A DNA stretch of 42,500 bases, taken from NCBI GenBank assembly GCA_041484665.1, contig JBGPIA010000028.1:1-42500 (forward strand). The letters run 5' to 3'. Of this stretch, positions 8,677 to 42,500 are shown piece after piece. The stretch is from Candidatus Krumholzibacteriia bacterium. GTDB taxonomy: Bacteria; Krumholzibacteriota; Krumholzibacteriia; JAJRXK01. The notes beneath the pieces were generated by a model. The model did not search any database and was not told the origin of the DNA. It saw nothing but the letters and a program-made list of their open reading frames with translations. Numbering within the stretch: position 1 is the stretch's first letter; each line of letters starts with the position of its first letter. The position numbers and the translations under genes were made by a program.

Positions 8677-8717
8677 TAACTTCGGCGCATTTTGCGGAGA
8701 AGTTAGCCGGGCGTCAA
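8677..8717 (-). promoter_or_regulatory. Candidate sigma70 promoter with inverted repeat over the -10
   Basis: TTGACG-17-CAAAAT, with inverted repeat TAACTTC..CGCA-TTT-TGCG..GAAGTTA at 8677-8705. Confidence 0.5.
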
Positions 8718-8720
8718 GGC

Positions 8721-9480
8721 GGATACTGGTTTCTATCGGCACACCATCGACGAACCACCTCTCTGAGCGCGGTGCCTTGAGCCCGGCGCGCACTTTCGGG
8801 CCGACCCGCGCTCCCCGGCCGCGCTCCCGGCGCCTCGGCGCACCGCCACCGATCTCGCCGTAGCCAGCCCCCCGCTGCGCCTGACGCCCTGGGCATGCGC
8901 GCGGGGCCCCGGTCCCACCCAACCCGCGCACGCCGGCGGTGCCCTCGTCGAGACGAGCGCCGGGAGGCGGTTGCGTCGACCCTCATGACGGCCGCGACCG
9001 CCAACTCGATCACGGAGCTGCGCGATCTCCAGTGGGATCGGGGGTGTCACGTGGGCCGTGACGTCACGAACCGGTCACGCCGCTGGCGGGGCCCGCCCCT
9101 CGGCCGGCTCCTCGAACGGATTCCTGCTGCCCGCCTCTGCCAGGTGGCGCAGGATCCGATTCCCGACGCCCTCGTCCTGGATCACCGAGACGATCCGCAT
9201 CTCCACCGTGGACGGAGAAGCCCGAGTGCACCCAGCTCAGCAGGTTCTGGTGGAACTCCTCCGACAAACGCTGCTCCCGCCGCAGCGCGGCCAGCACCAA
9301 CCGGCGGAAGAGCTCGGTCAGCGCGGCGGCGTCCCAGTGACCCATGCGCTCGAAGTGGCCGTCGGGCGCGAAGGCGCCGTCGGTGACGATGGCGTGTACG
9401 TGCGGATGGAAGTTGGCGGCGTAGCTGCCGAGGGTCTGCAAGGCGGCCACCGTCCCCACCGACAGCGCCACGGCGGGGCC
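8721..9480 (-). mobile_element. IS91-family (HUH/Y2) transposase remnant 1 with downstream oriIS-like end
   Basis: QTLGSYAANFHPHVHAIVTDGAF and WVHSGFSVH joined by a deletion to EMRIVSVIQDEG..RILRHL..RAPPAA* (stop 9075). End motif GATAGAAACCAGTATCC at 8721-8737. Confidence 0.8.
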
Positions 9481-9617
9481 GGGCGGACGGCGGAGCTCTC
9501 GGGCCTTGCGGCTCCCCGGGGCGGCGCATAGGCTCCCGACAGCGCGTGCCCTGACAGCGGACGATGAGCAGCGTTCTCTCCAGGACCCGATCGAGGCCGA
9601 TCTGAAGGAGTCCAGGC

Positions 9618-10700
9618 ATGGGGTTCGACCCACGGGAGCCCTTCGACGAGCTACCGGCGCTCCCTCCGCGGGTGGACGTCGAGACCAAGCGCGTGCTGAA
9701 GCGCACCGTAACGGCAACCCGCGCAGTGGCCGAGTTGAAGGGGGCGGGCGGGCTGATCCCGAACCAGGCTATCCTGATCAACGCCATTCCGCTGCAAGAG
9801 GCCAAGCTCAGCTCGGAGATCGAGAACGTCGTCACCACCCAGGACGAGCTGTTCCGGGCGGCCCTCAACGAGGACGCCCCTGCGGACTCCGCGACCAAGG
9901 AGGTGCTGCGCTACCGGAAGGCGCTGCGCCAGGGGTACGAGGCGCTGCAACATCGCCCTCTGAGCCTCGACTTGGTGCGCGAGGTGTGCTCCACCATCCG
10001 CGGCGAGCCGATGCGCTTCCGAACCGCCAAGGAGCAGGTCTTCATCGGCACCCCGTCCGGCAGCCGCGTGACCTATACGCCGCCGCGTGGCGGTCCGGCG
10101 CTGACCGCCAAGCTGCGCAATCTGGAGGCGTACCTGTTGGCCGCGGACGGCCCCGATCCGCTGGTCCGGATGGCGGTAGCGCACTACCAGTTCGAGGCCA
10201 TCCACCCGTTCACCGACGGCAATGGGCGCACCGGGCGCATCCTCAACATCCTGTACCTGCTGGACGCGGGCTTGCTCGAGATCCCGGTGTTGTACTTGAG
10301 CCGGTTCATCATCCAGCACAAGGCTGACTATTACCGGCTGCTGAGAGCCGTGACCGAGAAGGGCGACTGGGAAGCCTGGCTGCTGTTCATCCTGCAAGGG
10401 CTCGAGGAGACGGCGGAATGGACCACCGACCGCATCCGCGCCATCCGCGACCTGCTGGAAGCGACCGCCGAAACCTGCCGCCACGAGCTGCCCGCCATCT
10501 ATTCCCGGGAACTGGTCGAGCTGATCTTCCGGCTGCCCTACTGCAAGATCGCGTTCGTCGTGGACGCCGGGATCGCCCAGCGCAAGACCGCCTCCGAGTA
10601 CCTGCAGGAGCTGGAGCGGGTGGGCATCCTGGCCAGCGAGAAGCGTGGGCGGGAGGTCATCTATCGCCACCCGGCCCTGTTGAAGATCCTGGCGGCCTAG
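9618..10700 (+). CDS. fic: Class II Fic protein adenylyltransferase (SoFic-like, C-terminal wHTH)
   Basis: Canonical HPFTDGNGRTGR, N-terminal inhibitory motif SSEIEN, and an AAGGAG RBS. Confidence 0.92.
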   Translation: MGFDPREPFDELPALPPRVDVETKRVLKRTVTATRAVAELKGAGGLIPNQAILINAIPLQEAKLSSEIENVVTTQDELFRAALNEDAPADSATKEVLRYRKALRQGYEALQHRPLSLDLVREVCSTIRGEPMRFRTAKEQVFIGTPSGSRVTYTPPRGGPALTAKLRNLEAYLLAADGPDPLVRMAVAHYQFEAIHPFTDGNGRTGRILNILYLLDAGLLEIPVLYLSRFIIQHKADYYRLLRAVTEKGDWEAWLLFILQGLEETAEWTTDRIRAIRDLLEATAETCRHELPAIYSRELVELIFRLPYCKIAFVVDAGIAQRKTASEYLQELERVGILASEKRGREVIYRHPALLKILAA

Positions 10701-10710
10701 GGCGCCTTCG

Positions 10711-10761
10711 GGACATGTCCATTTTCTTTGGATTCTTGGACACGTTCCGGGGACGTGTCCA
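10711..10761. repeat. Three GGAC(A/G)YGTYC palindromic boxes / hairpin after fic
   Basis: GGACATGTCC 10711-10720, GGACACGTTC 10738-10747 and GGACGTGTCC 10751-10760; 10737-10761 forms a stem-loop. Confidence 0.6.
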
Positions 10762-10803
10762 CGGCGTGCCCGGGATCGCTGAAGGCGGGGCCCTGCGGTG
10801 AGC

Positions 10804-11460
10804 GGAAGTGGTTTCTATCGACACACCATCGACGAACCACCTCTCTGAGCGCTGTGCTTTGAGCTCGGCGCGCACTTCCCGGCCGACCCGCGCTCCTCGG
10901 CTACGCTTCCGGCGCCTTGGCGCACCGTCACTGACCTCGTCATAGCCAGCCCCCCCGCAGGGGTGGCGGCGGTGCGCGCCGCCGCGGGGCGAGCTTCCGC
11001 GTGGGAGAACGGCGTGCCCAACATCGAAGAAGCGGCCGCCGGAGCTGTGGCCAGGGCCAGCCTTTGCGGTTGGGGGCGCGCGCTCGGGGGAGGGTGCCCC
11101 GTCGCGACGCGCCAGCTCGGCGCCGAGCGGATAGAACTGCTCATCCACTGAGTGCGGCATGTTACCGCCACTGGGCGCGCCAGCGCCCGTGTCATGGGCA
11201 CACCCCGGCACCCGCGTCCCCATGGGGATCGCCGGGAGGCCTGGTCTGGAGTCTGGGTCATGCCGCCGGGGGCGCGCGAGAGGCTTGCGACTCGAGCAGC
11301 TCGACCCCCCGTGCGCGCGAGGTGTCTGTGGATGCGGTCGACGACATCGAGGTTGGAGATGACGGCGACCATCTTCAGCTCGACACGGCAGCGGGGGCAG
11401 AGCAAGGGGGTCGACCTCGTAGATGCGGCGCAACAGCCTGCCCCAGCTGCGGCGGCGGGC
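10804..11460 (-). mobile_element. IS91-family remnant 2 (C-terminal tnp fragment plus two opposed oriIS-like ends)
   Basis: LLRRIYEVDPLLCPRCRVELKMVAVISNLDVVDRIHRHL. 10804-10960 is homologous to 8721-8880. End motifs at 10804-10819 (-) and 11130-11146 (+). Confidence 0.7.
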
Positions 11461-11657
11461 GCGGGCAGCGGGGGTGTCGGTTGCGTCAGTGCTTCTGAAA
11501 TAGAGGCACGAATCTGGCCCGGCATGGGCGGAAGGTTTCCAGGGGGCGTTGACTGGCAGTCTGGTGCCGGCCCCCTGCCGGTGATAGGATCATGCGGATT
11601 CCCGACACGCCATCGGGCTGGCCACGACGCGCACAACCCATCCACCGAGGTGCCACC

Positions 11658-12488
11658 ATGCGCAATCGAACGCAGTTCCTGTTCTTCCTCCCGCTCGTCT
11701 TCACGCTGCTGGCCATGCCATTCTCGGCCTTGGCGGCGGGGGATATAGTCATTCAGGCTGTGGGCTCTGTGCAGGGCCTCATCCAAGGCGAGGCAGTCGT
11801 GCCCGGCCACCTAAACTGGATTGACGTTTTCAGTTTCTCACATGGGGTCTCGACTCCCATCGGACCCAACGGCCTACCGACCGGTCCGCCGCAGACTTCT
11901 CTGCTGAGTATCATGGGGCGGTTCGACCGCTCCACGGTGAAGCTGTTCACGGCACATTCGACGCAGGAGACATTCTCGAACTTCAGGATGGAATGGGTCC
12001 AAGCAGGGACAGCGCAGACCCTCATCCGATACGAATTGGTCAACGCGCGCCTCATCGACGCTCAAGAATCTGGAAGCGCCGGTGGCGATGTAACTCCGAC
12101 CGTGAGCATGAGCTTTTCCTACTCGAGGATCAATATCACCGATGTGGTCCTGGGCACCACGGTGAGTTACGACTGGAACTCCGTTGCAACCGCGACGCCG
12201 GAGCCGTTGGCAAAGGGGATCTTGCTCCCCCCGGCTCCCAATCCGACGCGTGGCGAGACCGAGTTCCGCTTCTCGCTGCCCACCGGGAGCAACGCCGAGC
12301 TGACGCTCTTCGATCTGCGCGGTCGCGTGGTGCGCGAGCTGCATCGCGGTTGGACCTCGGCCGAGCCCGTGGTCGCCGTCTGGGATGGCACCGATGACCA
12401 AGGTATCAAGGTCGCACAGGGTCTCTACGTGGCGCGACTGACCTATCCGGGCACGGTGGTCACGCAGCGCATCGCTCTCGTGCGCTAA
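11658..12488 (+). CDS. Secreted Hcp (T6SS tube)-like domain protein with C-terminal FlgD-Ig domain
   Basis: GAGGT RBS and a Sec signal peptide. Hcp signature IQGEA..PGHLNWIDVFSFSHGV..FDRSTVKLF..YELVNARL..VSMSFSYSRI, then PNP..FDLRGRVVR..WDGTD..QRIALVR. Confidence 0.85.
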   Translation: MRNRTQFLFFLPLVFTLLAMPFSALAAGDIVIQAVGSVQGLIQGEAVVPGHLNWIDVFSFSHGVSTPIGPNGLPTGPPQTSLLSIMGRFDRSTVKLFTAHSTQETFSNFRMEWVQAGTAQTLIRYELVNARLIDAQESGSAGGDVTPTVSMSFSYSRINITDVVLGTTVSYDWNSVATATPEPLAKGILLPPAPNPTRGETEFRFSLPTGSNAELTLFDLRGRVVRELHRGWTSAEPVVAVWDGTDDQGIKVAQGLYVARLTYPGTVVTQRIALVR

Positions 12489-12502
12489 GTCTACGCACGG
12501 CG

Positions 12503-12527
12503 CCGGGCCCCCAAGGCAGGGGCCCGG
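12503..12527 (+). terminator. GC-rich hairpin after the Hcp-like gene
   Basis: CCGGGCCCC-caaggca-GGGGCCCGG; weak U-tract. Confidence 0.5.
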
Positions 12528-12542
12528 TCCGCAATTCACTCT

Positions 12543-13155
12543 GTATCTACGGTTTTTCCAGCGCTGCCGACTGCTCGAGCACCTGCACACTGACCTCGTC
12601 GTGGCCAGCCCCCCCGCTGCGCCTGACGCCGTGGGCATGCGCGCGGGGCCGCCTGTCTCACCCAACTCACGCACGCCGGCGGTGCCCTCGTCTCGACGAG
12701 CGCCGGGAGGCGGTTGCGTCGACCCTCATGACCGCCGCGACCGCCAATCGCGACCGCCCACTCGATCACGGAGCTGCGCGATCTCTAGCGGGACCGGGGG
12801 GTGTCACGTGGGCCGTGACGTCACGAACCGGTCACGCCGCCGGCGGGGCCCGCCCCTCGGCCGGCTCCTCGAACGGATCCCTGCCGCCTGTCATTGCCAG
12901 GTGGCGCAGGATGCCGTCCACCACGCCCTCGTCCTGGATCACCGCCACGATCCGCATCTCCACCCACACCGCGGACATAGCAGCGGGTCCGCCTCGTAGA
13001 TCCGCCGCAGCAGCCGCGCCCAGCTGCACCGGCGCGCGCGCTGCTCGGCGCTCTGCGCTGGCGTGGTGTTCCGGGGAGCCGCTGCCGCCGGTGGTGCGGC
13101 AGCACGGCTCGCCTCGCTGCGCCGCCGCGCCCCCCGACTGCGGTTGGCGTACCAG
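12543..13155 (-). mobile_element. IS91-family remnant 3, 3' part (interrupted at RYYG by the recombinase element)
   Basis: GWYANRSRG..WARLLRRIYEADPLLCPRCG..EMRIVAVIQDEGVVDGILRHL..RAPPAA*. The downstream non-coding region is near-identical to 8860-9075. Confidence 0.85.
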
Positions 13156-13156
13156 C

Positions 13157-13459
13157 CGTAGTACCCACAGGACTGCAACCTCGAGCGGGGTCGCGGGCGG
13201 CACGGTCGTCATCACGCATCCTTGCCATCCGTACGCCGGCCGGGAGGTCTGTGTTGTCCGCGCCGATCGCCGCCGCGGAGATCTCCTGAGCCTGGTGGTC
13301 CGGCTGCCCGATGGAAGCACCCAGTGCATGCCCGTGGCCTGGACGGATCGGGCCGCGCCCGATTCTCACGTGATCGGCGCTTCACCACGAGCGCAGCTCT
13401 CGGGTCTTGCCCTGCTCGAGGTCCTGGACTGGCTCGACGGGTTGCATAGCGGGTCTTGA
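13157..13459 (+). CDS. DUF5372 (Y4bD/Y4pK)-like protein, 3' part; 5' part lies at 15920-15982
   Basis: VVITHPCHPYAGREV..VVRLPDGSTQCMPVAWTD. No start codon with an RBS inside the element's left end; in frame with the ATG at 15920 across the circle junction. Confidence 0.7.
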   Translation, partial: RSTHRTATSSGVAGGTVVITHPCHPYAGREVCVVRADRRRGDLLSLVVRLPDGSTQCMPVAWTDRAAPDSHVIGASPRAQLSGLALLEVLDWLDGLHSGS

Positions 13460-13513
13460 CGGGAGCGGACGGGATGGAGCACTCTGGGCATGTATTCACA
13501 GGGTCAGATCAAC

Positions 13514-13870
13514 ATGGCTCGAACACCGTCACGTCGAAGGCTGCCCAGCAAGCGCGCACGGGAGCGCCTGCTCGCCCAGCTGCCCGATCTGCGGCAGATC
13601 CTGCGCGGCTCGCTGGTCACGCGCTACCGCCGCTGCGGCCGCTCCAATTGCCACTGTGCCGCGCCGCAGGATCCTGGTCATGGGCCGGCCTACTACCTGA
13701 TGGTGACGACGGGCCCGGGCGAGACGGTGCAGATCTACGTCCCGGCCCGCATCAAGCCCGACGTCGAGGCCTGGCTCGAGAATTTCCAGCGCGTGCGCGA
13801 CACGCTGGAGCAGATCTCGTCGATCAACCGGGAGCTGCTGCGCCAGGGGCGGCTCTTCGAGGAGGACTGA
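13514..13870 (+). CDS. DUF6788-family protein (Cys/His zinc-binding motif)
   Basis: LRGSLVTRYRRCGRSNCHC...GHGPAYYL signature; alternative ATG at 13490. Confidence 0.8.
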   Translation: MARTPSRRRLPSKRARERLLAQLPDLRQILRGSLVTRYRRCGRSNCHCAAPQDPGHGPAYYLMVTTGPGETVQIYVPARIKPDVEAWLENFQRVRDTLEQISSINRELLRQGRLFEED

Positions 13871-13904
13871 GCTGCGCGCCACCGCGGGCAGGCCGACGGA
13901 CAGC

Positions 13905-14120
13905 GTGGCCCTACCGGCGCCCGGTTGGCAGCCGCAGCCGTGTCCGCCACGGACGGATCGCGCTGCAGGGCCGCTGCCGGAGCTGGACCGAACGAGGATC
14001 GAGGAGATCCTCTGCGCGATGCTGATCTCCTCGGTACAAGACGTTCAATCGGGTGTCGTGCGTGAGCCAAAGAGGAAGTATGGCCGTGGGAAAGATCGGC
14101 TGGCAGCACCTGAATCGTAA
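13905..14120 (+). CDS. Small hypothetical protein overlapping the recombinase start
   Basis: 71-aa ORF with amphipathic LPELDRTRIEEILCAMLISS filling the gap between DUF6788 and the recombinase. Confidence 0.35.
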   Translation: MALPAPGWQPQPCPPRTDRAAGPLPELDRTRIEEILCAMLISSVQDVQSGVVREPKRKYGRGKDRLAAPES

Positions 14121-15966
14121 GGCGTGCCTGTATGTGCGCCAGTCCTCGCTGGCCCAGGTTACGCACCACCGGGAGAGCACGGCCCGCCAGTACAACCTGC
14201 GCGAGCGGGCGGTCGCGCTGGGGTGGGCGGCCGAACAGGTCGAGGTGATCGACGAGGATCAGGGGCTCTCGGGCGCGAGCGCGGTGGGTCGCGAAGGCTT
14301 CCAGCGCTTGGTCTCCGATGTGGCGCTGGGCCAGGTGGGGGCGGTGCTGGGGCTGGAGGTCAGCCGGCTGGCCCGCTCGTGCGCGGATTGGTACCGGCTG
14401 CTGGAGGTAGCGGCCCTGGCCGGGACCTTGATCGTCGACGAGGAGGGCGTCTACGACCCCAATCACTACAACGACCGGCTGTTGCTGGGGCTCAAGGGGA
14501 CCCTCAGCGAGGCGGAGTTGCACTTTCTCAAGCAGCGCATGATCGGTGGCCGCCGCAACAAGGCGTTGCGCGGCGAGTATCGCATTCGTCTGCCGGTGGG
14601 CTACGTGTGGGAGAAGGAAGCCGGGATCCGGATGGATCCCGACGAGCGCGTGCGCGACACGGTCGCGCTCTTCTTCCGCTGCTTCGCACGGCTGGGCACG
14701 GCGGCGGCGGTGGCCCGCCACTTCGAGCAGCTGCGCCAGCCGTTTCCGCGCCGCGACGGCTGGGGGAGTCCCGACGTGGCCGTCAGCTGGGGGCCGTTGA
14801 GCTGGTCGCGAGCGGCGGAGATACTGCGCAGTCCGATCTACGCCGGAGTCTATGCCTACGCACGGAAGGCGTCGGCGGAGATGGATGCGGAGGATCCGTG
14901 TGCGGGGGGTCGGATCTTGATTCCCGGCGCGCACCCTGGCTATATCACAGTCGAGCAGTACGAGCGCAACCTGGCGCGTCTGGCGGGCAACCGGAATCTC
15001 TACGGCGGCATGCGGACCAAGGGAAGCCCACGCGAGGGACACAGCCTGCTGCAGGGCATCGTGCTGTGCGGGCGGTGCGGGCGCCGGATGAGTGTGATCT
15101 ACCGCCGCGACGTACGAATGTCGTCGCCCGATCACGCGCCGACTCTGCCAGCAGGTCCACGCGCGGCACGTCGAGCCTCTGGTGGAGGGGCAACTGCTGG
15201 GGACCCTCTCGCGCGAGCAGTTGGAGCTGGCGGTGGGAGCGCTGGAGCGGCTGGCCGAGCGGGGCCGGGAGATCGACCGCCAGTGGCACAAGCGTCTTGA
15301 AAAGCTCGCTACGAGGCGGAGCGGGCAGCGCGGCGCTACCACCAGGTGGAGCCGGAGAACCGGCTGGTCGCGCGCACGCTGGAGGCGGAGTGGAACGCGC
15401 GGCTGGAGGAGGTGGCGCAGCTGGAGAAGGAGTACGCACAGCTGCGGGAGCGTCCGCCCTTGGCGCTGACCGGCGAGCAGCGTAGCCGGATCGTTTCACT
15501 GGCGAGCGATCTGCCACGGCTGTGGCGGGCGCCAACGACACGCCACAGCCAGCGCAAGGAATTGGTGCGGCTGCTGGTCGAAGACGTCACGGTGCACAAC
15601 ACGGACATCCCGTGGGCGACCGCGGTGGCGATCCGTTGGCGGACGGGGTTGGTCGAACGCCATACGGTGGAGCGTGTCCTGCCGCACCCGCAGACCACAC
15701 CAAAGGCGGCGGTCGATCGGATCCGGGAGCTGTACCGGGTGCAGACGGATCGAGAGATCGCTCACCTCCTCAACGGCGAGGGCTACCGCACCGGATACGG
15801 GAAGCCCTTCACGGAGTCGAGTGTAGGCAGCATCCGGCTGCAGCGGGGGCTGCGGAAGACCGCGGCCGACAAGGCGCCGGGTGGGCCGTTGGACCGAAGC
15901 ACAAGTAGGGAGGAAGTCGATGAGTCGCGGGGAGCAGCCACGCCCCCACCCCGCTCGGACTCGTAG
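14080..15966 (+). pseudogene. Large serine recombinase (resolvase + recombinase + Zn ribbon + coiled coil) with two frameshifts
   Basis: GAGGA RBS, LYVRQSS catalytic Ser, DEDQGLSG, EVSRLARS and CGRCG. Frameshift near 15110 (resumes YECRR..LCQQVH) and near 15303 (one A missing in GAAAAG; resumes ARYEAERAARRY..EPENRLVARTLEAEWN). Confidence 0.85.
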
Positions 15967-15982
15967 TCCTGAGGGTACTATC
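15920..15982 (+). CDS. N-terminal 21 codons (MSRGEQPRPHPARTRSPEGTI) of the attP-split DUF5372-like gene
   Basis: GGGAGG RBS at 15908-15913 and ATG at 15920; in frame with 13157 on circularisation. Confidence 0.6.
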
Positions 15983-15989
15983 CGTAGTA

Positions 15990-16480
15990 GCGGACCATGT
16001 GCTGCCGCGGTGCGGGGATCTGCTGCACCAGCCGGTGGATCAGCTCCAGGGGGTCCAGTTGCAGGTCGCGTTGGCCCGTGCGCGGGTCGATGGGCGTCTG
16101 CACCACCACGGCCTGCGCGGTCTGCCGTACCGCATCCAGGCGCAGCGGCGCCCTCGTCAGATAGCGCGCGACGTGCTCCAGGCTCGCCGTATCGTCGGGC
16201 AACAGGGCGGGACCCACGTGCACCGAGAAGCCCGGGTGTACCTAGCCCAGCAGGTTCTGGTGGAACTCCTCCGACAACCGCTGCTCCCGCCGCAGCGCGG
16301 CCAGCACCAACCGGCGGAAGAGCTCGGTCAGGGCGGCAGCGTCCCAGTGACCCATCCGCTCGAAGTGGCCATCGGGTGCGAAGGCGCCGTCGGTGACGAT
16401 GGCGTGCACGTGAGGATGGAAGTTGGCGGCGTAGCTGCCAAAGGTCTGCAGGGCGGCCACCGTCCCCACCGACAGCGATG
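15990..16480 (-). mobile_element. IS91-family remnant 3, 5' part
   Basis: QTFGSYAANFHPHVHAIVTDGAF, in-frame stop at 16242, VARYLTRAPLRLD and LELIHRLVQQIPAPRQHMVRYYG. Confidence 0.85.
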
Positions 16481-16679
16481 GATCATCGACGCATGCCCGA
16501 GCCGCCCGCCGGAGCCTGTCAACGCGGATGAGACAGCTCATCCCCGACTCCCTGGTCACCCTCTACACTAAACCCCAGGGGGATCGATGTCTCATCCAGA
16601 TTGGCAGAGAGGGTTGAGCTGTCCCGTGCTGGTGATCCCTCGCTGCTGGAGGGGTTCCAAGACAGCCGCAAGCAGAGGG

Positions 16680-16883
16680 TCCTCTGGAAGGGCGCCCCCC
16701 AGCGGGCGCCGCCGGCGGCATGCGCGGCGCCCGTCCAAACGCTGCACTCAGCTAAGGCGGCTGCTCACAGCGTGGCGAGGGTCAGCGGGTGCTGTTACGG
16801 GCACGCGGTCCGGGGCAAGGCGCCCTGCTCGGAGCGGAAGTCATGGCGCAAGGTCGGGCCAGGGCGGATACAAACACCGATCC
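16680..16883 (+). mobile_element. Orphan IS91-like downstream/oriIS region (remnant 4)
   Basis: Homologous to the reverse complement of 22310-22430; ends in GATACAAACACCGATCC at 16867-16883. Confidence 0.55.
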
Positions 16884-17301
16884 ACACCGCCGCCGCTACA
16901 AAGACTCAGCCGTTCCTCCCAAATCTCCAAACTGCTCAGCGGATCACATCTTCAGAGCATCGCAGCCCACGGGAAAGGCGTAGGCTGCCTTGGCAGGCTC
17001 TCGCTGGAGCTGGGATGTGGTCCATCTGCCTCGTCCGCGATGTCGCCTCTTACCCACAGCTGCCGTTTGCGATTGCTACCTGTTCTCTCGCTGCGGAAGT
17101 CCACCGCCCGCCACAGCTAAGCTGGGTCTCCGGCGACTCCACGGTCCATTCCCGCGCACCGACAGTCCGCGACGATTGCACTGGCGAGGAGCCAGCGGTG
17201 GCATCCGATGACCGCAGTCAGCACCAACGCGCTGACCCATTGTACAAGTACGCCAGCGCTGTCCTGCCAACCGAGGTCCTCAACGCCAACTAGGAGTCAT
17301 C

Positions 17302-21321
<4,020 letters not shown>

Positions 21322-21379
21322 CCCCAGCCAGACTCGTCGATCGTGTCGATCGGACCGAGTGCCACCATGGGGAGGACTG

Positions 21380-21717
21380 AGTTCCGCATGTGCACACCAT
21401 CGTCACGGATGGCGGCTTCGCCCCTGACGGCCGCTTCGAGCGGATGGGGCACTGGGCAGCCGGCGCGCTGACCGAGCTCTTCCGCCGCCTGGTGCTTTCG
21501 GCGTTACGACGCGAGCAACGCCTGACGGCGGATACCCAGCAGGCGCTGTTGGCCTGGGTGCACTCCGGCTGCTCGGTCCACGTCGGACCACCGATCCTGC
21601 CGGACGACACGGGCAGTCTCGAGCACTTGGCCCGATACCTCACGCGGGCATCGCTGCACCTGGCCCGCCACGTGGGTTGGTGCACCAACCGCGGCCGGGC
21701 AGCGCGGGACGGCGGCC
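21380..21717 (+). mobile_element. IS91-family remnant 5
   Basis: HVHTIVTDGGFAPDGRFERMGHW..LFRRLVL..WVHSGCSVHVGPPILPDD..LARYLTRA. Confidence 0.75.
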
Positions 21718-22300
21718 TCAGCGCTCTCCGCGCTCGAACTCGGAGAGATCCACCAGAAACGCGGTGGCCGCAATCAGATGGTGTCCCGCGATGTCCTTCA
21801 GCAGTCGCTCAACGGCGGGGGATCGGCCCAGACGGTCACCGAATCGTCGGGATAGCCAAATCGCGACCGGGATGACGGCCAGCCCGAACAGCGTGCTGGC
21901 GACCAAGTAGCGAAGGCCGAGGGTCTGGTAGGCGTCCACGCCCCACAGGCCCTGCAGGACGACGATGAGCAACGGCGTCCACGCCAGCGCAGCGCCCAGC
22001 AGCACCCACTGTACGTGCCGAATCCGCCGCAGCCGCAACCTCTCCAGCCGCCTCTGGATGGGGGCGAGCGGCTGCGCGTAGTCGATTCGCGCAGCCAGAC
22101 TCAGCTGCGCGATCAAGTCACCGAAGACCGCGATGGCAAACAAGTGGAGGGCTACGCCCGGGAGCGCGAAGCGTGCCGCGGAGAAGTGCGCGTAGTTGAA
22201 CGTTCCCAGGGCCAGGATTGCGGCAAACGTCAACCCGGCCTCCAGTCCCAAGGCGAGCGCGTGGCGCTGCAACGCAGAGCGGGCTCGGCCGAGGTGCACT
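21718..22300 (-). pseudogene. 5'-truncated membrane protein (resembles ECF-sigma-associated membrane/anti-sigma proteins)
   Basis: About four TM helices and RIDYAQPLAPIQRRLERLR; upstream sequence is replaced by the IS91-like end at ~22308. Confidence 0.55.
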
Positions 22301-22307
22301 GCACCGC

Positions 22308-23445
22308 GGGGTTTGTATCCGCCCCGGCCCGAACTCCGGCCGAACTCCCGCCGCGCGCCGCGGCACCTTACGCTGATGCGCGTGCCCGCAACAACGCTCG
22401 CTCGCCCTGGCCACGGCCCGGTGGGGCCGCTTCGGCGATGCGGGGCACGCCATCTCACACCTGCAGTGCCTCGCGGCTTGCGACCGGCGGCTCTCCATCC
22501 CCCCCGCGGGCACACCTCCACGCCGGCTCCCCCACGAACTACAGGCGAGCCCAGCAGGATGCCCCCGGTGAGCGGCGGTCATGGCCGGTCACGTCAGGCC
22601 GCCGGCGGGGCCCGCCCCTCGGCCGGCTCCTCGAACGGATCCCTGCCGCCTGTCATTGCCAGGTGGCGCAGGATGCGGTCGACGACGCCTTCTTCCTGGA
22701 TCACTGCGACGATCCGCATCTCCACGCCGCAGCGCGGACGGAGTAGCGGGACCGCTTCGTAGATCCGCCGCAGCAGCCGTGCCCAGCTGCGCCGGCGGGC
22801 GCGCTGCTCGGGACGATCGAACCGGATCGCTGCGTCTTCGCTCTGCGCACCGCTCGCGGCCAGCGCCGCCAGAGCGGCGGCGTCACCGGTGAGCTCCGCA
22901 CGCCCCTCAGCCGCCCGCCTTCGCCGCGCGCCGCGGCTGCGGTTGGCGTACCAGGCGAGGGTGCGCGCCATGTGTTGCCGCGGCGCGGGGATCTGCTGCA
23001 CGAGCCGGTGGATCAGTTCCAGGGGCGAAAGCTGCAGGTCGCGCTGGCCCGTGCGCGGATCCACCGGGGTGGGCACGATCACCGCCTCGGCCACCGGGCG
23101 CAGCGCGTCTTGCCGCAGCGGAGAGCGGGCGATGGTCCGGGCAAGCTGCTCCAGACCGGCGCGGTCGTCGGGCAGCATCGGCGGGCCGACGTGGACGGAG
23201 AAGCCCGAGTGCACCCAGGCCAACAGCCGCGCTGGGTGCCCGCCGTCAGACGTTGCTCGCGTCGCAAGGCCGCGAGCACCAGCCGGCAGAAGAGCTCGGT
23301 CAGGGCGATGGCGGCCCATCGACCCATCCGCTCGAAGCGGCCAGCACCGGCGAAGGCGCCATCGGTGACGATCGCGTGGACGTGAGGATGGGAATTGGCA
23401 GCAGAGCTGCCGAAGGTCTGCAGAGCGGCAATCGTGCCCACCGAG
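22308..23445 (-). mobile_element. IS91-family remnant 6 (frameshifted tnp 22594-23445 plus end region)
   Basis: QTFGSSAANSHPHVHAIVTDG, WVHSGFSVHVGP, LELIHRLVQQIPAPRQHM and WARLLRRIYE..RAPPAA*; truncated end motif GATACAAACCCC at 22308-22319. Confidence 0.85.
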
Positions 23446-23960
23446 CGGCGAGGATCTCGCGCGCACCGGTGATGGGGTGCCGTGGAGTGCGTACGACGAC
23501 TTCGCCCGCGGTCTGACGGACGGCGTCCATGCGCAGGCGGGCGCGGCACAACTAGCGCGCCAAGTGCTCCAGCAGCCGGGTCTCGTCCGGCAGGATCGGC
23601 GGGCCGACGTGGACCGAGAAACCCGAGTGCATCCAGCCCAGCAGCTGCAGGCGGGTCTCTTCGATCAACCGCTGGTCGCGTAGCAGGGCGACCAACACCA
23701 GGCGACGGAACAGCTCGCGGAGCGCCTGCTGGTCCCAGCGGCGGACGCGCTCGAAGCTGCCGTGAGGTGCGAACACCCCGTCGGCGACCAGGGCGTGCAC
23801 GTGCGGGTGGAAGGTGGCAGCATAGCTGCCAAAGGTCTGCAAGGCGGCGACCGTCACCCGGTGGGCACGCGGTAGGCCGGCAACCTCGCGGAGCATCTTC
23901 CGCACGCAAGCGTGCGCACAGCGGGTCAGCAGCCCCACCAGGGGTCGCTCGTGTGGTGAG
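23446..23960 (-). mobile_element. IS91-family remnant 7 (divergent copy in tandem with remnant 6)
   Basis: ERPLVGLLTRCAHACV..LQTFGSYAATFHPHVHALVADGVF..WMHSGFSVHVGP..LEHLAR* (stop 23552), then RARLRMDAV. Confidence 0.8.
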
Positions 23961-34685: not shown

Positions 34686-35714
34686 ATGAGAACTCACACA
34701 ACCGCTGTGCTGGGGACTCGAGCAACTCCTCGGCTGCGCACGCGCGCAACGCATCTCCTGTTGGCTGCGATGCTGATCGGTCTGATTTCCTCGCCAGCCC
34801 GCGCTGACCTGGCGGCCTACAGCCAGGACTTCGAGGGGCTGGTCCAGTCCGACCCGGGCGCCCTGGCGAACGACGGCTGTTTGGTCTACGGAAACGTCTT
34901 CCAGCCGGACGGAACCACCTACATCTATGGTTACGGTGCGTTCCTGGCTCCCAACGATGGCTTCGCGTTCTGCCAGATCGACCTCGGGCAGGGTGGCGTG
35001 GAGCAGGGCTTCCAGCAGCTCGTGGTGTTCAGCGATTACAACAACACCGATCACGCCCTCGGGCGGATCATCGAATCGAACGTCTACCGGGAGCAGATCA
35101 TCGGAGCCGCGAACGTCGGGCAGACGTGGGTATTCCAATTCCAGGCCAAGCTCGGCAATCTGACCGGCGCATCCACAGCGGCGGCATGGATCAAGACCCT
35201 CAACCCGAGCGCTGGCTACGCGACGACCAACTGGATCTCCCAGAACATGACGTCGACTCCCGTCAGCTGGTCGGGCTACTCGCTGTCGATCCTGATCGAT
35301 GCGAGTCTGGTGGGTCAGATCCTCCAGATTGGGTTCTCGAACCGGGCCACGAACTATCAGGGTTCGGGGGTCTTCTACGACAACCTCGATTTCCACCAGG
35401 GCGGCGGGATCGACGCACCACCGAGCCCGGTCGCTTTCGGCGCTGCGCTGGGGCAGAACTACCCCAACCCATTCAACCCCAGCACGCGCATCGACTTCCG
35501 CCTCGATCAGCCGGGGACGGTCGATCTCGCGGTGTTCAATCTCGCAGGACGCAGGTTGGCAACCCTCGAGCAAGGAGCGCTGGCGAGCGGGAACCACGTG
35601 GCGGTCTGGAACGGGCGGACCGACGACGGCGTGGCCGTAGCCTCCGGTCGGTATGCATACGTGCTGACCACCGCGAGCGGTCGGATCTCCCGCGGTATGG
35701 TCCTGCTCAAGTAG
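34686..35714 (+). CDS. Secreted protein of unknown function (putative glycan-binding beta-sandwich) with FlgD-Ig domain
   Basis: GAGG RBS, signal peptide ..PARA-DLAAYSQDFE, core paralogous to 39420-40148, and QNYPNPFNPST..WNGRTDDG..SG C-terminal domain. Confidence 0.85.
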   Translation: MRTHTTAVLGTRATPRLRTRATHLLLAAMLIGLISSPARADLAAYSQDFEGLVQSDPGALANDGCLVYGNVFQPDGTTYIYGYGAFLAPNDGFAFCQIDLGQGGVEQGFQQLVVFSDYNNTDHALGRIIESNVYREQIIGAANVGQTWVFQFQAKLGNLTGASTAAAWIKTLNPSAGYATTNWISQNMTSTPVSWSGYSLSILIDASLVGQILQIGFSNRATNYQGSGVFYDNLDFHQGGGIDAPPSPVAFGAALGQNYPNPFNPSTRIDFRLDQPGTVDLAVFNLAGRRLATLEQGALASGNHVAVWNGRTDDGVAVASGRYAYVLTTASGRISRGMVLLK

Positions 35715-39419: not shown

Positions 39420-40148
39420 CTAGTTGAAGAGCGACTTCACGCTGCCCCAGGTCACCGGTTCGGTCGGGATGGACCCGTCGGGAGCGAAGTTGATGTTGTC
39501 GTAAAGGGTGCCCGAGGGCTCGTAGTGGGTTGCGTTGTTCGCGAAGCCGATCTGCAGGATCTGACCCACCAGGCTCGGATCGATCACGATCGACAACGAG
39601 TACGTCGACCACGTGGCAGGGATGGCCGTCATGTTTGCCGTGATGAAGTTCGTCATCGCATAGCCGGCTGCGGGATTGAGGGTCTTGATGAACGCCAGCG
39701 CGGTCGAGTTGCCAGCCAGGTCCCCGTGCTTGGCGTCGAACGTGAACACCCACGTCTGGCCTGCGTTCGCCGCGCCGACGACCAGCTCGTGGAAGACGTT
39801 GGACTCGATGATGTTGCCGTTGGCGTGGTCGCCGTTGTTGTAGTCGCTGAAGACCACGAGCTGTTGCGCACCCTGCCCGGCTCCACCCTCCCCGGCGGCG
39901 ATGGTGCAGAACGCGTAGGGAGGCCCGCCATTGGGAGCCGGGAAGCTTCCGTAGCCGTACAGGTACGCGCCGCCCGGGGCGAACACGTTGGCGAAGACCA
40001 GCCAGCCGCCGCCCGCCAGCGCGCCGGGATCCGTCTGGATCATGCTCTCGAAATCTTGCGAGTAGATAGCTAGGTCTGCGCGAGCCGCCGCGGGAATCAC
40101 GATGATCAGCGCCGCGACCGCGAAGACGGCGGTAGCACACTTGCTCAT
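39420..40148 (-). CDS. Secreted protein, paralog of 34686-35714, ending in a TWGxxK tail
   Basis: GAGGA RBS, signal peptide ..AARA-DLAIYSQDFE, shared QQLVVFSDYNN.DHA and LVGQILQIGF.N, and C-terminus PTEPVTWGSVKSLFN. Confidence 0.88.
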   Translation of the reverse strand: MSKCATAVFAVAALIIVIPAAARADLAIYSQDFESMIQTDPGALAGGGWLVFANVFAPGGAYLYGYGSFPAPNGGPPYAFCTIAAGEGGAGQGAQQLVVFSDYNNGDHANGNIIESNVFHELVVGAANAGQTWVFTFDAKHGDLAGNSTALAFIKTLNPAAGYAMTNFITANMTAIPATWSTYSLSIVIDPSLVGQILQIGFANNATHYEPSGTLYDNINFAPDGSIPTEPVTWGSVKSLFN

Positions 40149-41948: not shown

Positions 41949-42442
41949 GGATCGTCGATTCTCTCCGGCGGGTGTCGCGTTCTTACCGCGCGGCTGGCCG
42001 ATGTCGCGCTGGCGTGGGGGTGCCCGGGCGCTGGCGCGCCCTTCTTCCAGCCCCGCTGGGTGCCGTGTCGAACCCGGGCCCGCCGATGCCCCGCCGGGAA
42101 CACCCGTCGCCGGCGCCCGGAGTTGCCGACTTGCCTCCAGCGGGCACACCGGCACTAGGACTGCGCCACGCCGCGCGCGCGAACTCGGGCGGGCCCACCC
42201 GGGAGGTTCGCTCCTGCGGGGCCAGGCCGTGCCTTGGCCCTGCCCGCTCACGGCGCCAGTGGCGCCCTTCCTTCGGCAACCTCGAAGGGGTCATCGCCGC
42301 CTGTGCGTGACAGGTGGCGCAGGATGCGGTCCACGACCTTGTCGTCCTGGATCACCGACACGATCCGCATCTCCACGCCGCAGCGCGGACAGAGTAGCGG
42401 GACCGCTTCGTAGATCCGCCGCAGCAGCCGTGCCCAGCTCGT
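41949..42442 (-). mobile_element. IS91-family remnant 8 (C-terminal tnp fragment plus end region)
   Basis: SWARLLRRIYEAVPLLCPRCGVEMRIVSVIQDDKVVDRILRHL; end motif GAGAGAATCGACGATCC at 41949-41965. Confidence 0.8.
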
Positions 42443-42500
42443 CCAGCAAGAGCGGAATGGCCGCCACGGCGTTGGCCACCAGATGCAGCCCGGTGATCCG

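What the first reader, a model, noticed from the sequence alone, without database searches (positions are those of the whole stretch)
13147..15993. Reconstructable attP/attB: the element landed in a pseudo-palindrome encoding the conserved RYYGWY motif of an IS91 transposase
Reconstructed attP is TCGTAGTCCTGAGGGTACTA-TCCG-TAGTACCCACAGGACTGCAA, 20-bp arms matching 17/20 around a 4-bp centre. Reconstructed attB is GCGTACCA-GCCG-TAGTAGCG, which mimics the inner arms (TACYA-nCCG-TAGTA) and shares the central CC dinucleotide expected for serine-integrase crossover. The target codes for a conserved IS91 motif, so the element may parasitise this multi-copy IS family. The equivalent site is altered in two other copies (RTLAWY near 22955; RHVGWC near 21670), which could be ordinary decay or escape.
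Basis: partly seen in the sequence, partly recalled or inferred. Interest (0 to 1): 0.7.

Follow-up and report, generated by a model that had tools for sequence, protein, structure and literature searches.

The report
Recombinase element that hunts IS91 transposases
A 2.8-kb jumping element sits in one exact codon of another jumping gene (an IS91-type transposase), its relatives in many bacteria sit at the same codon, its first gene would be whole only after the element loops out as a circle, and the uninvaded IS91 copies in this genome are mutated at that very spot, possibly as an escape.

Summary
Confirmed and extended. A 2,826-bp element (DUF5372, DUF6788, short ORF, large serine recombinase) interrupts an IS91-like transposase gene at the Gly codon of R-Y-Y-G-W-Y. 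Its recombinase defines a clade (SH-aLRT 99). Of 41 clade loci with a visible end, 39 join that motif, one joins another site in an IS91 gene and one a DNA look-alike in an IS5-type gene. The two ends share only CC in 5 of 17 two-ended loci, which fixes the crossover. A second insertion scar sits at the same codon elsewhere in this genome. A model docks DUF5372 on the recombinase (0.75; best control 0.00). All six uninterrupted IS91 copies here lack the second Tyr (101 of 112 homologues keep it), which suggests escape. The target is only weakly palindromic. The window's copy is frameshifted, and no circle was seen. Closest named relative: NGRIS-4 (y4bA-D) of NGR234; earlier notes of this scan already describe the family.

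The parts
12832..13157 (-). 3' part of the IS91-like transposase gene (from the Gly codon on; frameshifted near its CPRCG motif)
13136..13196 (+). left junction: host arm, central CC at 13156-13157, element arm 13158-13196
13157..13459 (+). 3' portion of the DUF5372 gene (100 codons), no ATG/GTG/TTG in its first 20 codons; predicted SH3/KOW-like barrel plus helix
   Evidence: Pfam PF17342 E 2e-8
13490..13870 (+). DUF6788 gene (conserved Cys/His motif), role unknown
   Evidence: Pfam PF20586 E 4e-28
13905..14120 (+). short ORF overlapping the recombinase start; relatives keep an E-I-L-C-x-M-L motif here
   Evidence: no Pfam match
14080..15966 (+). large serine recombinase gene, broken by an 11-nt loss after 15104 and a 1-nt loss after 15300 relative to L013
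   Evidence: Pfam Resolvase, Recombinase, Zn_ribbon_recom; no indel variant inside the element in 4 public runs
15907..15982 (+). ribosome-binding site, ATG at 15920 and first ~20 codons of the DUF5372 gene, in frame with 13157-13459 only when the ends are joined
15943..16003 (+). right junction: element arm 15943-15981, central CC at 15982-15983, host arm
15984..16560 (-). 5' part of the IS91-like transposase remnant up to R-Y-Y (truncated upstream, one internal stop)
   Evidence: Pfam Y2_Tnp in two pieces
22922..23087 (-). uninterrupted IS91-like copy with the target changed (RTLA)
21653..21714 (+). IS91-like copy with an internal deletion and the target changed (RHVG)

Best explanation
This is a cargo-free mobile element that sits at the Gly codon of the R-Y-Y-G motif of IS91-like transposase genes, likely placed there by its own large serine recombinase through a circular intermediate with strand exchange at the central CC, and whose DUF5372 gene would be complete only in that circle, where its product is predicted to bind the recombinase. 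Shown: boundaries, gene content, shared target and CC overlap across the clade, the split DUF5372 frame, and the altered target in the genome's empty IS91 copies. Inferred: excision to a circle. Recognition is likely of DNA (TA-N4-GG-N4-TA plus a Tyr-Tyr half-site that matches the element's own inner arm), and the conserved protein motif keeps that DNA available in many IS91 lineages. DUF5372 most likely acts as a circle-only directionality factor that favours integration (about 50%); it could instead be an RDF-like lock on attP (about 30%). Landing in a dispensable multi-copy gene spares the host and likely lets the element travel with IS91-bearing DNA. The empty copies here probably persist because their site no longer fits. 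The window's own copy is likely inactive.
For: Same codon in 39 of 41 clade loci with a visible end; ends were called from element features, not from the target. Y2_Tnp matches end at profile position 172-173 in 15 of 18 flanks, 9 above the curated cut-off. One clade, SH-aLRT 99, in records from several phyla. Second scar at the same codon, C6:14474-14517. Overlap reduced to CC in 5 of 17 two-ended loci; 53 of 58 junctions read CC. Off-motif insertions keep the DNA pattern: L030 on the non-coding strand of an IS5-type gene, L047 at another Y-x-G-x-Y site. In-frame start 18-23 codons before the centre in 19 of 19 right ends, 15 with a ribosome-binding match of at least 5 of 6, against 0 in the other two frames. 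The same split is seen in pNGR234a. Complex model: score 0.75, best of 3 controls 0.00; the mark was reached by 116 of 157 solved complexes and 2 of 215 mismatched pairs; runs agree in at least 87% of contacts, partner pLDDT at least 72; my own alignments were used, so the counts hold only roughly. Its interface lies on the zinc-ribbon domain and, by my reading of the sequence, the coiled-coil base, where RDFs are reported to bind (PMC11722253 passages).
Against: No circle junction and no precise empty site of this locus appeared in contigs of 4 runs (contigs drop rare forms, and this copy is frameshifted). Five of 58 junctions lack CC (GG twice and GC once with the IS inverted; AC twice), although serine recombinases generally do not religate mismatched ends; these need mismatch tolerance or later mutation. 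Six of 24 left ends hold an in-frame GTG/TTG, and in the window the DUF5372 frame is open for 253 codons upstream, so expression from the integrated form is not excluded. Two perfect core motifs outside IS genes are unoccupied, so the core alone does not explain targeting. Fourteen of 55 clade loci show no junction. L040's right end joins unrelated DNA.
Confidence: 0.8

Rival explanations
1. The recombinase has a loose DNA preference and inserts widely; insertions in IS91 genes are simply the ones the host tolerates.
For: Two of 41 loci are off-motif, and the centre is sometimes mismatched. The minimal dyad occurs 211 times in this genome.
Against: Tolerance cannot pick one codon: 39 of 41 loci use the same codon of divergent IS91 lineages, and none was seen between genes. 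Sister clades join other mobile genes (IS3, IS110, IS630-like by Pfam; group II intron RT by a recalled motif).
Confidence: 0.07
2. One ancient insertion made a composite IS91-plus-element unit that spread as a whole, so the shared site reflects descent, not repeated targeting.
For: Some loci share both element and flank (L013/L015, L019/L020).
Against: Near-identical recombinases sit in different IS91 sequences (L005, L029, L021/L024). There are 22 distinct left and 19 distinct right host flanks after dereplication, three inverted insertions, and a second scar in this genome.
Confidence: 0.05
3. On the empty copies only: their altered motif is ordinary decay or natural IS91 variation, not escape.
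For: All copies in this genome are decayed. The motif varies in nature (RFYG in 48 of 112 homologues). Sites with Leu after the first Tyr were still invaded (L035, L039), and two empty copies (RYVG, RYLG) score inside the lower target range. One copy in a related genome is also broken just before the motif (L110). The sample is one genome.
Against: First- and second-position changes hit 11 of 16 positions in the two Tyr codons against 16 of 208 in the flanking codons (4 copies; Fisher p 3e-8). None of 6 copies keeps the second Tyr, against 101 of 112 homologues (p 4e-6, copies treated as independent). Each copy has a different, in-frame, indel-free change to Leu, Val or Phe. All 8 spanning copies in four related genomes without this recombinase keep Y-[YF]-G.
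Confidence: 0.35
4. The start codon at the right end is incidental and DUF5372 is expressed from the integrated element, or acts as an ordinary excision factor.
For: In-frame GTG/TTG in 6 of 24 left ends; the NGR234 record annotates an internal start. The modelled binding site is the RDF site.
Against: Frame, distance and ribosome-binding site are conserved in 19 of 19 right ends and in a clade only 53% identical; no left end has an ATG in the first 20 codons.
Confidence: 0.12

Closest known systems
NGRIS-4 / y4bA-y4bD element of Sinorhizobium fredii NGR234 (names and the report that its copies lie in other ISs are recalled from Perret et al. 1997; only its reference-list entry was seen; the text was not held)
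   Same: Best plasmid hit, 53% identity. DUF5372 first, recombinase last, inserted in a transposase gene, first gene split across the ends.
   Different: Second gene is an HTH protein, not DUF6788. The recombinase is about 694 aa, not about 608. The target is an ISNCY-annotated transposase. It falls in a separate clade; there only about 4 codons lie at the right end, here about 20.
Site-specific large serine integrases of phages and ICEs (SPbeta, Bxb1, phiC31; survey in PMC10083194, passages and supplements searched)
   Same: Domain order, 2-bp crossover, dissimilar attP and attB, clades that target one conserved site in one gene.
   Different: No phage, conjugation or cargo genes; the target is another mobile element's transposase. 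The survey's 8 supplements gave no hit for IS91, Y2_Tnp or DUF5372, and transposase activity was not enriched among its targets (FDR 0.37).
Tn4451/Tn4453 (TnpX) and Tn5397 (TndX) (recalled)
   Same: Small transposon-like elements moved by a large serine recombinase through a circle.
   Different: Recalled as multi-target, with the circle junction forming a promoter; here one codon is targeted and the junction completes a reading frame.
Archaeal suicidal integrases, SSV1/pTN3/pT26-2 (PMC8371274, passages read)
   Same: The att site lies inside an element gene, which integration splits.
   Different: Those are tyrosine recombinases that split the integrase gene itself; here a serine recombinase stays whole and an accessory gene is split.

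Membership tests
Large serine recombinase | Resolvase + Recombinase + zinc-ribbon domains in order | tested here: met
   best solved relative SPbeta integrase E 1e-20
Large serine recombinase | N-terminal catalytic serine motif (Y-x-R-x-S, motif recalled) | tested here: met
   YVRQS in the window; Ser at least 90% conserved in 24 sequences
Large serine recombinase | intact gene in this window | tested here: not met
   two frameshifts; the relative L013 is intact at 608 aa
Serine-integrase integrative element | 2-bp crossover between dissimilar attP and attB, no longer duplication required | tested here: met
   overlap of exactly CC in 5 of 17 two-ended loci
Serine-integrase integrative element | excision to a circle and re-integration | tested here: inconclusive
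   no joined-end contig in 4 runs; contigs cannot show absence
NGRIS-4-like (y4bA-D) elements | DUF5372 first, recombinase last, inserted in a transposase gene, first gene split across ends | tested here: met
NGRIS-4-like (y4bA-D) elements | HTH second gene and ~690-aa recombinase as in NGRIS-4 itself | tested here: not met
   DUF6788 and ~608 aa instead: a related clade, not NGRIS-4 proper
IS91-family transposase (target) | Y2_Tnp domain, with Zn_Tnp_IS91 upstream | tested here: met
   Y2_Tnp in the window remnants; both domains in P0001, 89% identical to the L013 target. IS ends were not mapped.
Recombination directionality factor (DUF5372) | binds the recombinase at the zinc domain / coiled-coil base | tested here: inconclusive
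   model only: 0.75 against best control 0.00
Recombination directionality factor (DUF5372) | switches recombination direction | not testable with these tools
   needs an assay
TnpX/TndX transposons | many unrelated targets (recalled) | tested here: not met
   39 of 41 at one codon
TnpX/TndX transposons | circle junction forms a promoter (recalled) | not tested
   only the integrated element was scanned: 0 sigma-70-like sites
Suicidal (SSV-type) integrases | tyrosine recombinase whose own gene holds attP | tested here: not met
   serine family; attP lies in DUF5372

The most novel reading that the evidence does not exclude
An undescribed clade of hyperparasitic elements is locked in an arms race with IS91: it reads the DNA of a conserved transposase motif, builds a new kind of circle-only directionality factor (DUF5372, SH3-like) by joining its ends so that only the excised form is licensed to integrate, and drives IS91 copies in invaded genomes to swap the motif's tyrosines for other hydrophobic residues to escape.
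Probability: 0.3. Interest if true: 0.8.

Novelty: new variant of a known kind. Interest (0 to 1): 0.6.

Why it matters
It gives a natural, many-times-repeated attB for a clade of about 85 full-length recombinases (59-100% identity) with a mapped crossover, so the clade can be tested directly as integration tools. It suggests a function for DUF5372, for which no paper was found, and a form of directionality control in which recombination itself assembles the cofactor's gene. IS91-family elements mobilise neighbouring genes (established knowledge), so a parasite that cuts their transposase, and possible escape variants, would bear on how active they stay. The family-level picture is not new to this scan; the RYYG clade map, the CC mapping and the escape signature are what this window adds.

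Tried and rejected
Circle or precise empty site in public runs: none in contigs of 4 of 24 listed runs; joints that skip the element carry the sequence of other IS91 copies. No RNA holder listed. Viral contigs: 3 distant loci (39-41%), not followed. Phylum search: 4 of 207 other genomes hold a related recombinase, by full-length identity (44-50%) outside the clade; one is a short 63% fragment. A right-arm pattern search in 5 genomes gave no more hits than its control and missed the window's own arm, so it was dropped. Fold searches: DUF5372 has only weak SH3/KOW-like matches (best Z 7.0, rmsd 2.4, 60 aligned; none with Foldseek E at or under 0.001); DUF6788 has nothing clear. Truncated proteins as a measure of invasion rate: only 1 or 2 of 120 end at the motif, too few to use. 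The careful tree did not finish; the quick tree is used. Literature: 0 papers for DUF5372, NGRIS-4 with NGR234, y4bA and a RIT query. Searches listed nothing on this element by title or abstract; most were seen as listings only. The library lacks most subscription papers, and ISfinder was not available. Rejected: a strong palindromic attB (7 of 20; clade logo); the 8-bp core as a target-site duplication (it varies from 2 to 10 bp among CC/CC loci).
Full report
Observation. The element lies between two copies of an 8-bp core at 13156-13163 and 15982-15989. Without the element the minus strand reads one open frame through R-Y-Y-G-W-Y, and the upstream half is Pfam Y2_Tnp. Inside are DUF5372, DUF6788, a short ORF and a large serine recombinase. 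The recombinase has lost 11 nt after 15104 and 1 nt after 15300 against an intact relative. Contigs of four public runs show no indel variant inside the element, and one covers it whole without difference, so this copy is likely fixed and inactive. The host IS is also a remnant.

Own genome. The window is contig C28 of a 5.4-Mb genome. The full element is single-copy, but 44 bp of its right end (93% identical) sit at the same codon of another IS91-like copy at C6:14474-14517: a second, independent insertion. A more distant recombinase at C6:732-2921 joins the 3' end of yet another IS91-like gene at a different site.

Relatives. Two scans gave 92 loci (12 of 12; the best 80 of 102). Fifty-four of them plus the window form the working set: at least 65% identity, plus L065 by the tree. 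A quick tree of 85 rows puts the 46 rows of this set that were long enough in one clade (SH-aLRT 99). Left ends were called at a fixed distance from the DUF5372 match and right ends by the element's arm motif, so neither used the target. By hand I shifted L021 by 3 nt, added L039 and L047, and removed a false call in L010. Fourteen of 55 loci show no junction (short contigs, truncated or doubtful members). Of the other 41, 39 join the Gly position of an R-Y-x-G-x-Y-type motif; five of these have 19 nt or less of flank on a side and rest partly on the motif alone. Pfam Y2_Tnp matched 15 of 18 flanks tested, always ending at profile position 172-173. The exceptions are L047 (another Y-x-G-x-Y site in an IS91-like gene, weak Pfam support) and L030 (non-coding strand of an IS5-type gene). 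Both keep the DNA pattern on the sides that can be seen, which points to DNA recognition. More distant clades join IS3, IS110 and IS630-like genes, a group II intron reverse transcriptase (motif recalled; no Pfam match on the piece tested) and, in pNGR234a, an ISNCY-annotated transposase.

Crossover and att anatomy. In 17 two-ended loci the overlap runs from 2 to 10 bp where both ends read CC, and is exactly CC in five. Of 58 junctions 53 read CC; three left ends have the IS inverted (GG, GG, GC) and two read AC. The element arms keep an inner ACTAC/GTAGT dyad and an outer box at 13-19 bp. Targets keep T-6/A-5 (20 of 22) and T+5/A+6 (18 of 19), and the Tyr-Tyr half resembles the element's inner arm, but positions -1 to -4 are free. 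The target is thus a partial dyad produced by the tyrosine codons. I could not separate DNA preference from protein conservation further out.

Split gene. Joining the ends places a start codon 18-23 codons before the centre, in the DUF5372 frame and without a stop, in 19 of 19 dereplicated right ends; 15 have a ribosome-binding match of at least 5 of 6, against none in the other frames. None of 24 left ends has an ATG in the first 20 codons; six have GTG or TTG. In the window the ATG is at 15920. The integrated frame is open 253 codons upstream on the IS antisense strand, so read-through is formally possible here. The NGR234 element shows the same split with a shorter first piece. A model of the L013 recombinase with the start-less DUF5372 part scored 0.75 against a best control of 0.00 (mark reached by 116 of 157 solved and 2 of 215 mismatched pairs; at least 87% contact agreement; partner pLDDT at least 72; own alignments). 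The interface uses the conserved His-Pro motif and C-terminal helix of DUF5372 and recombinase residues 328-397 and 464-529. That region covers the zinc ribbon (322-375) and, by my reading, the coiled-coil base, the reported RDF site (PMC11722253, passages). This supports binding; it does not show it. A factor made only from the circle fits an integration helper better than a self-excision factor; that step is inference.

Empty copies. Six uninterrupted copies span the site: RYVG, RTLA, RKLG, GDFA (found by alignment across the site), RHVG and RYLG (shorter matches). A seventh (C7) breaks just before it and was not counted. In the first four, changes at codon positions 1-2 are 11 of 16 in the Tyr codons against 16 of 208 in the flanks. 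None of six keeps the second Tyr, against 101 of 112 homologues with an aligned motif (120 listed of 1,075; the query ended in this motif, which may bias the baseline). Eight copies in four related genomes, probably three lineages, keep Y-[YF]-G, and those genomes gave no match to the recombinase profile; two further copies there were cut or broken before the motif. On a target-derived matrix the six score -6.6 to 5.0, against a leave-one-out target median of 11.4 and 11.6-12.8 for the relatives. Two of the six are within the low target range. Two of the variants recur in public contigs. I put a site-focused cause (escape, survival of unfit sites, or error-prone repair at the cut) at about 65% and plain decay at 35%.

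Comparison and novelty. It works like a site-specific serine integrase and is related to, but not the same as, NGRIS-4 of NGR234 (53% identity), whose habit of landing in other ISs I recall from Perret et al. 1997 (reference entry seen; text not held). The LSR survey PMC10083194 (passages; 8 supplements searched) does not name this target. Split-on-integration genes are known for archaeal suicidal integrases (PMC8371274, passages). Searches that found no description. Earlier AI notes of this scan already describe the family, its IS91-targeting members and the split gene. I had found the target and the split before reading them; they prompted the binding model and are not independent evidence.

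Verdict. Real feature, interpretation supported; a new variant of a known kind; interest 0.6.

Noticed in passing
G000:C6:732-2921 (L099): A second, intact-looking 730-codon recombinase of the long type (C-terminal HTH_17) whose right end joins the CPRCG region of another IS91-like gene; its left part is deleted. Two clades seem to have invaded IS91 in this genome at different sites.
   Followed up: partly
L097 (G090:C12), right end near 406: An element of the NGR234-like clade joins an IS91-like gene just after the same motif but in the IS's own orientation: possible convergence on this region.
   Followed up: partly
window 11592-12488 (+): A gene fusing an Hcp (type VI secretion tube) domain to a C-terminal FlgD Ig-like domain, with an apparent signal peptide, between IS91 remnants.
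   Followed up: no
window 8700-23950 and 42280-42500: At least six IS91-like remnants are interleaved with genes for repeat-rich secreted proteins; two tested carry a FlgD Ig tail (11592-12488, 17302-21321). The IS may have shuffled these genes.
   Followed up: no
proteins P0001-P0120: A large IS91-like lineage has R-F-Y-G (48 of 112), which removes the most conserved target base; none of 19 distinct invaded sites has Phe there. Possibly a resistant lineage, possibly just different hosts.
   Followed up: no
proteins P0121-P0204: About 17 of 84 clade recombinases (counted by eye) have a longest contig of 2.75-2.91 kb, the element's own length, as expected for multi-copy or circular elements.
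   Followed up: no
L041:447-1181; L040:2268-3400; L036 right flank: Variants: tandem DUF6788 duplication (L041); duplicated recombinase C-terminus with an unrelated right flank (L040); a small hairpin inserted in the target next to the junction (L036).
   Followed up: no
window 34961-35393 and 39486-39918: A 433-nt inverted repeat at 73% identity, probably paralogous gene segments.
   Followed up: no
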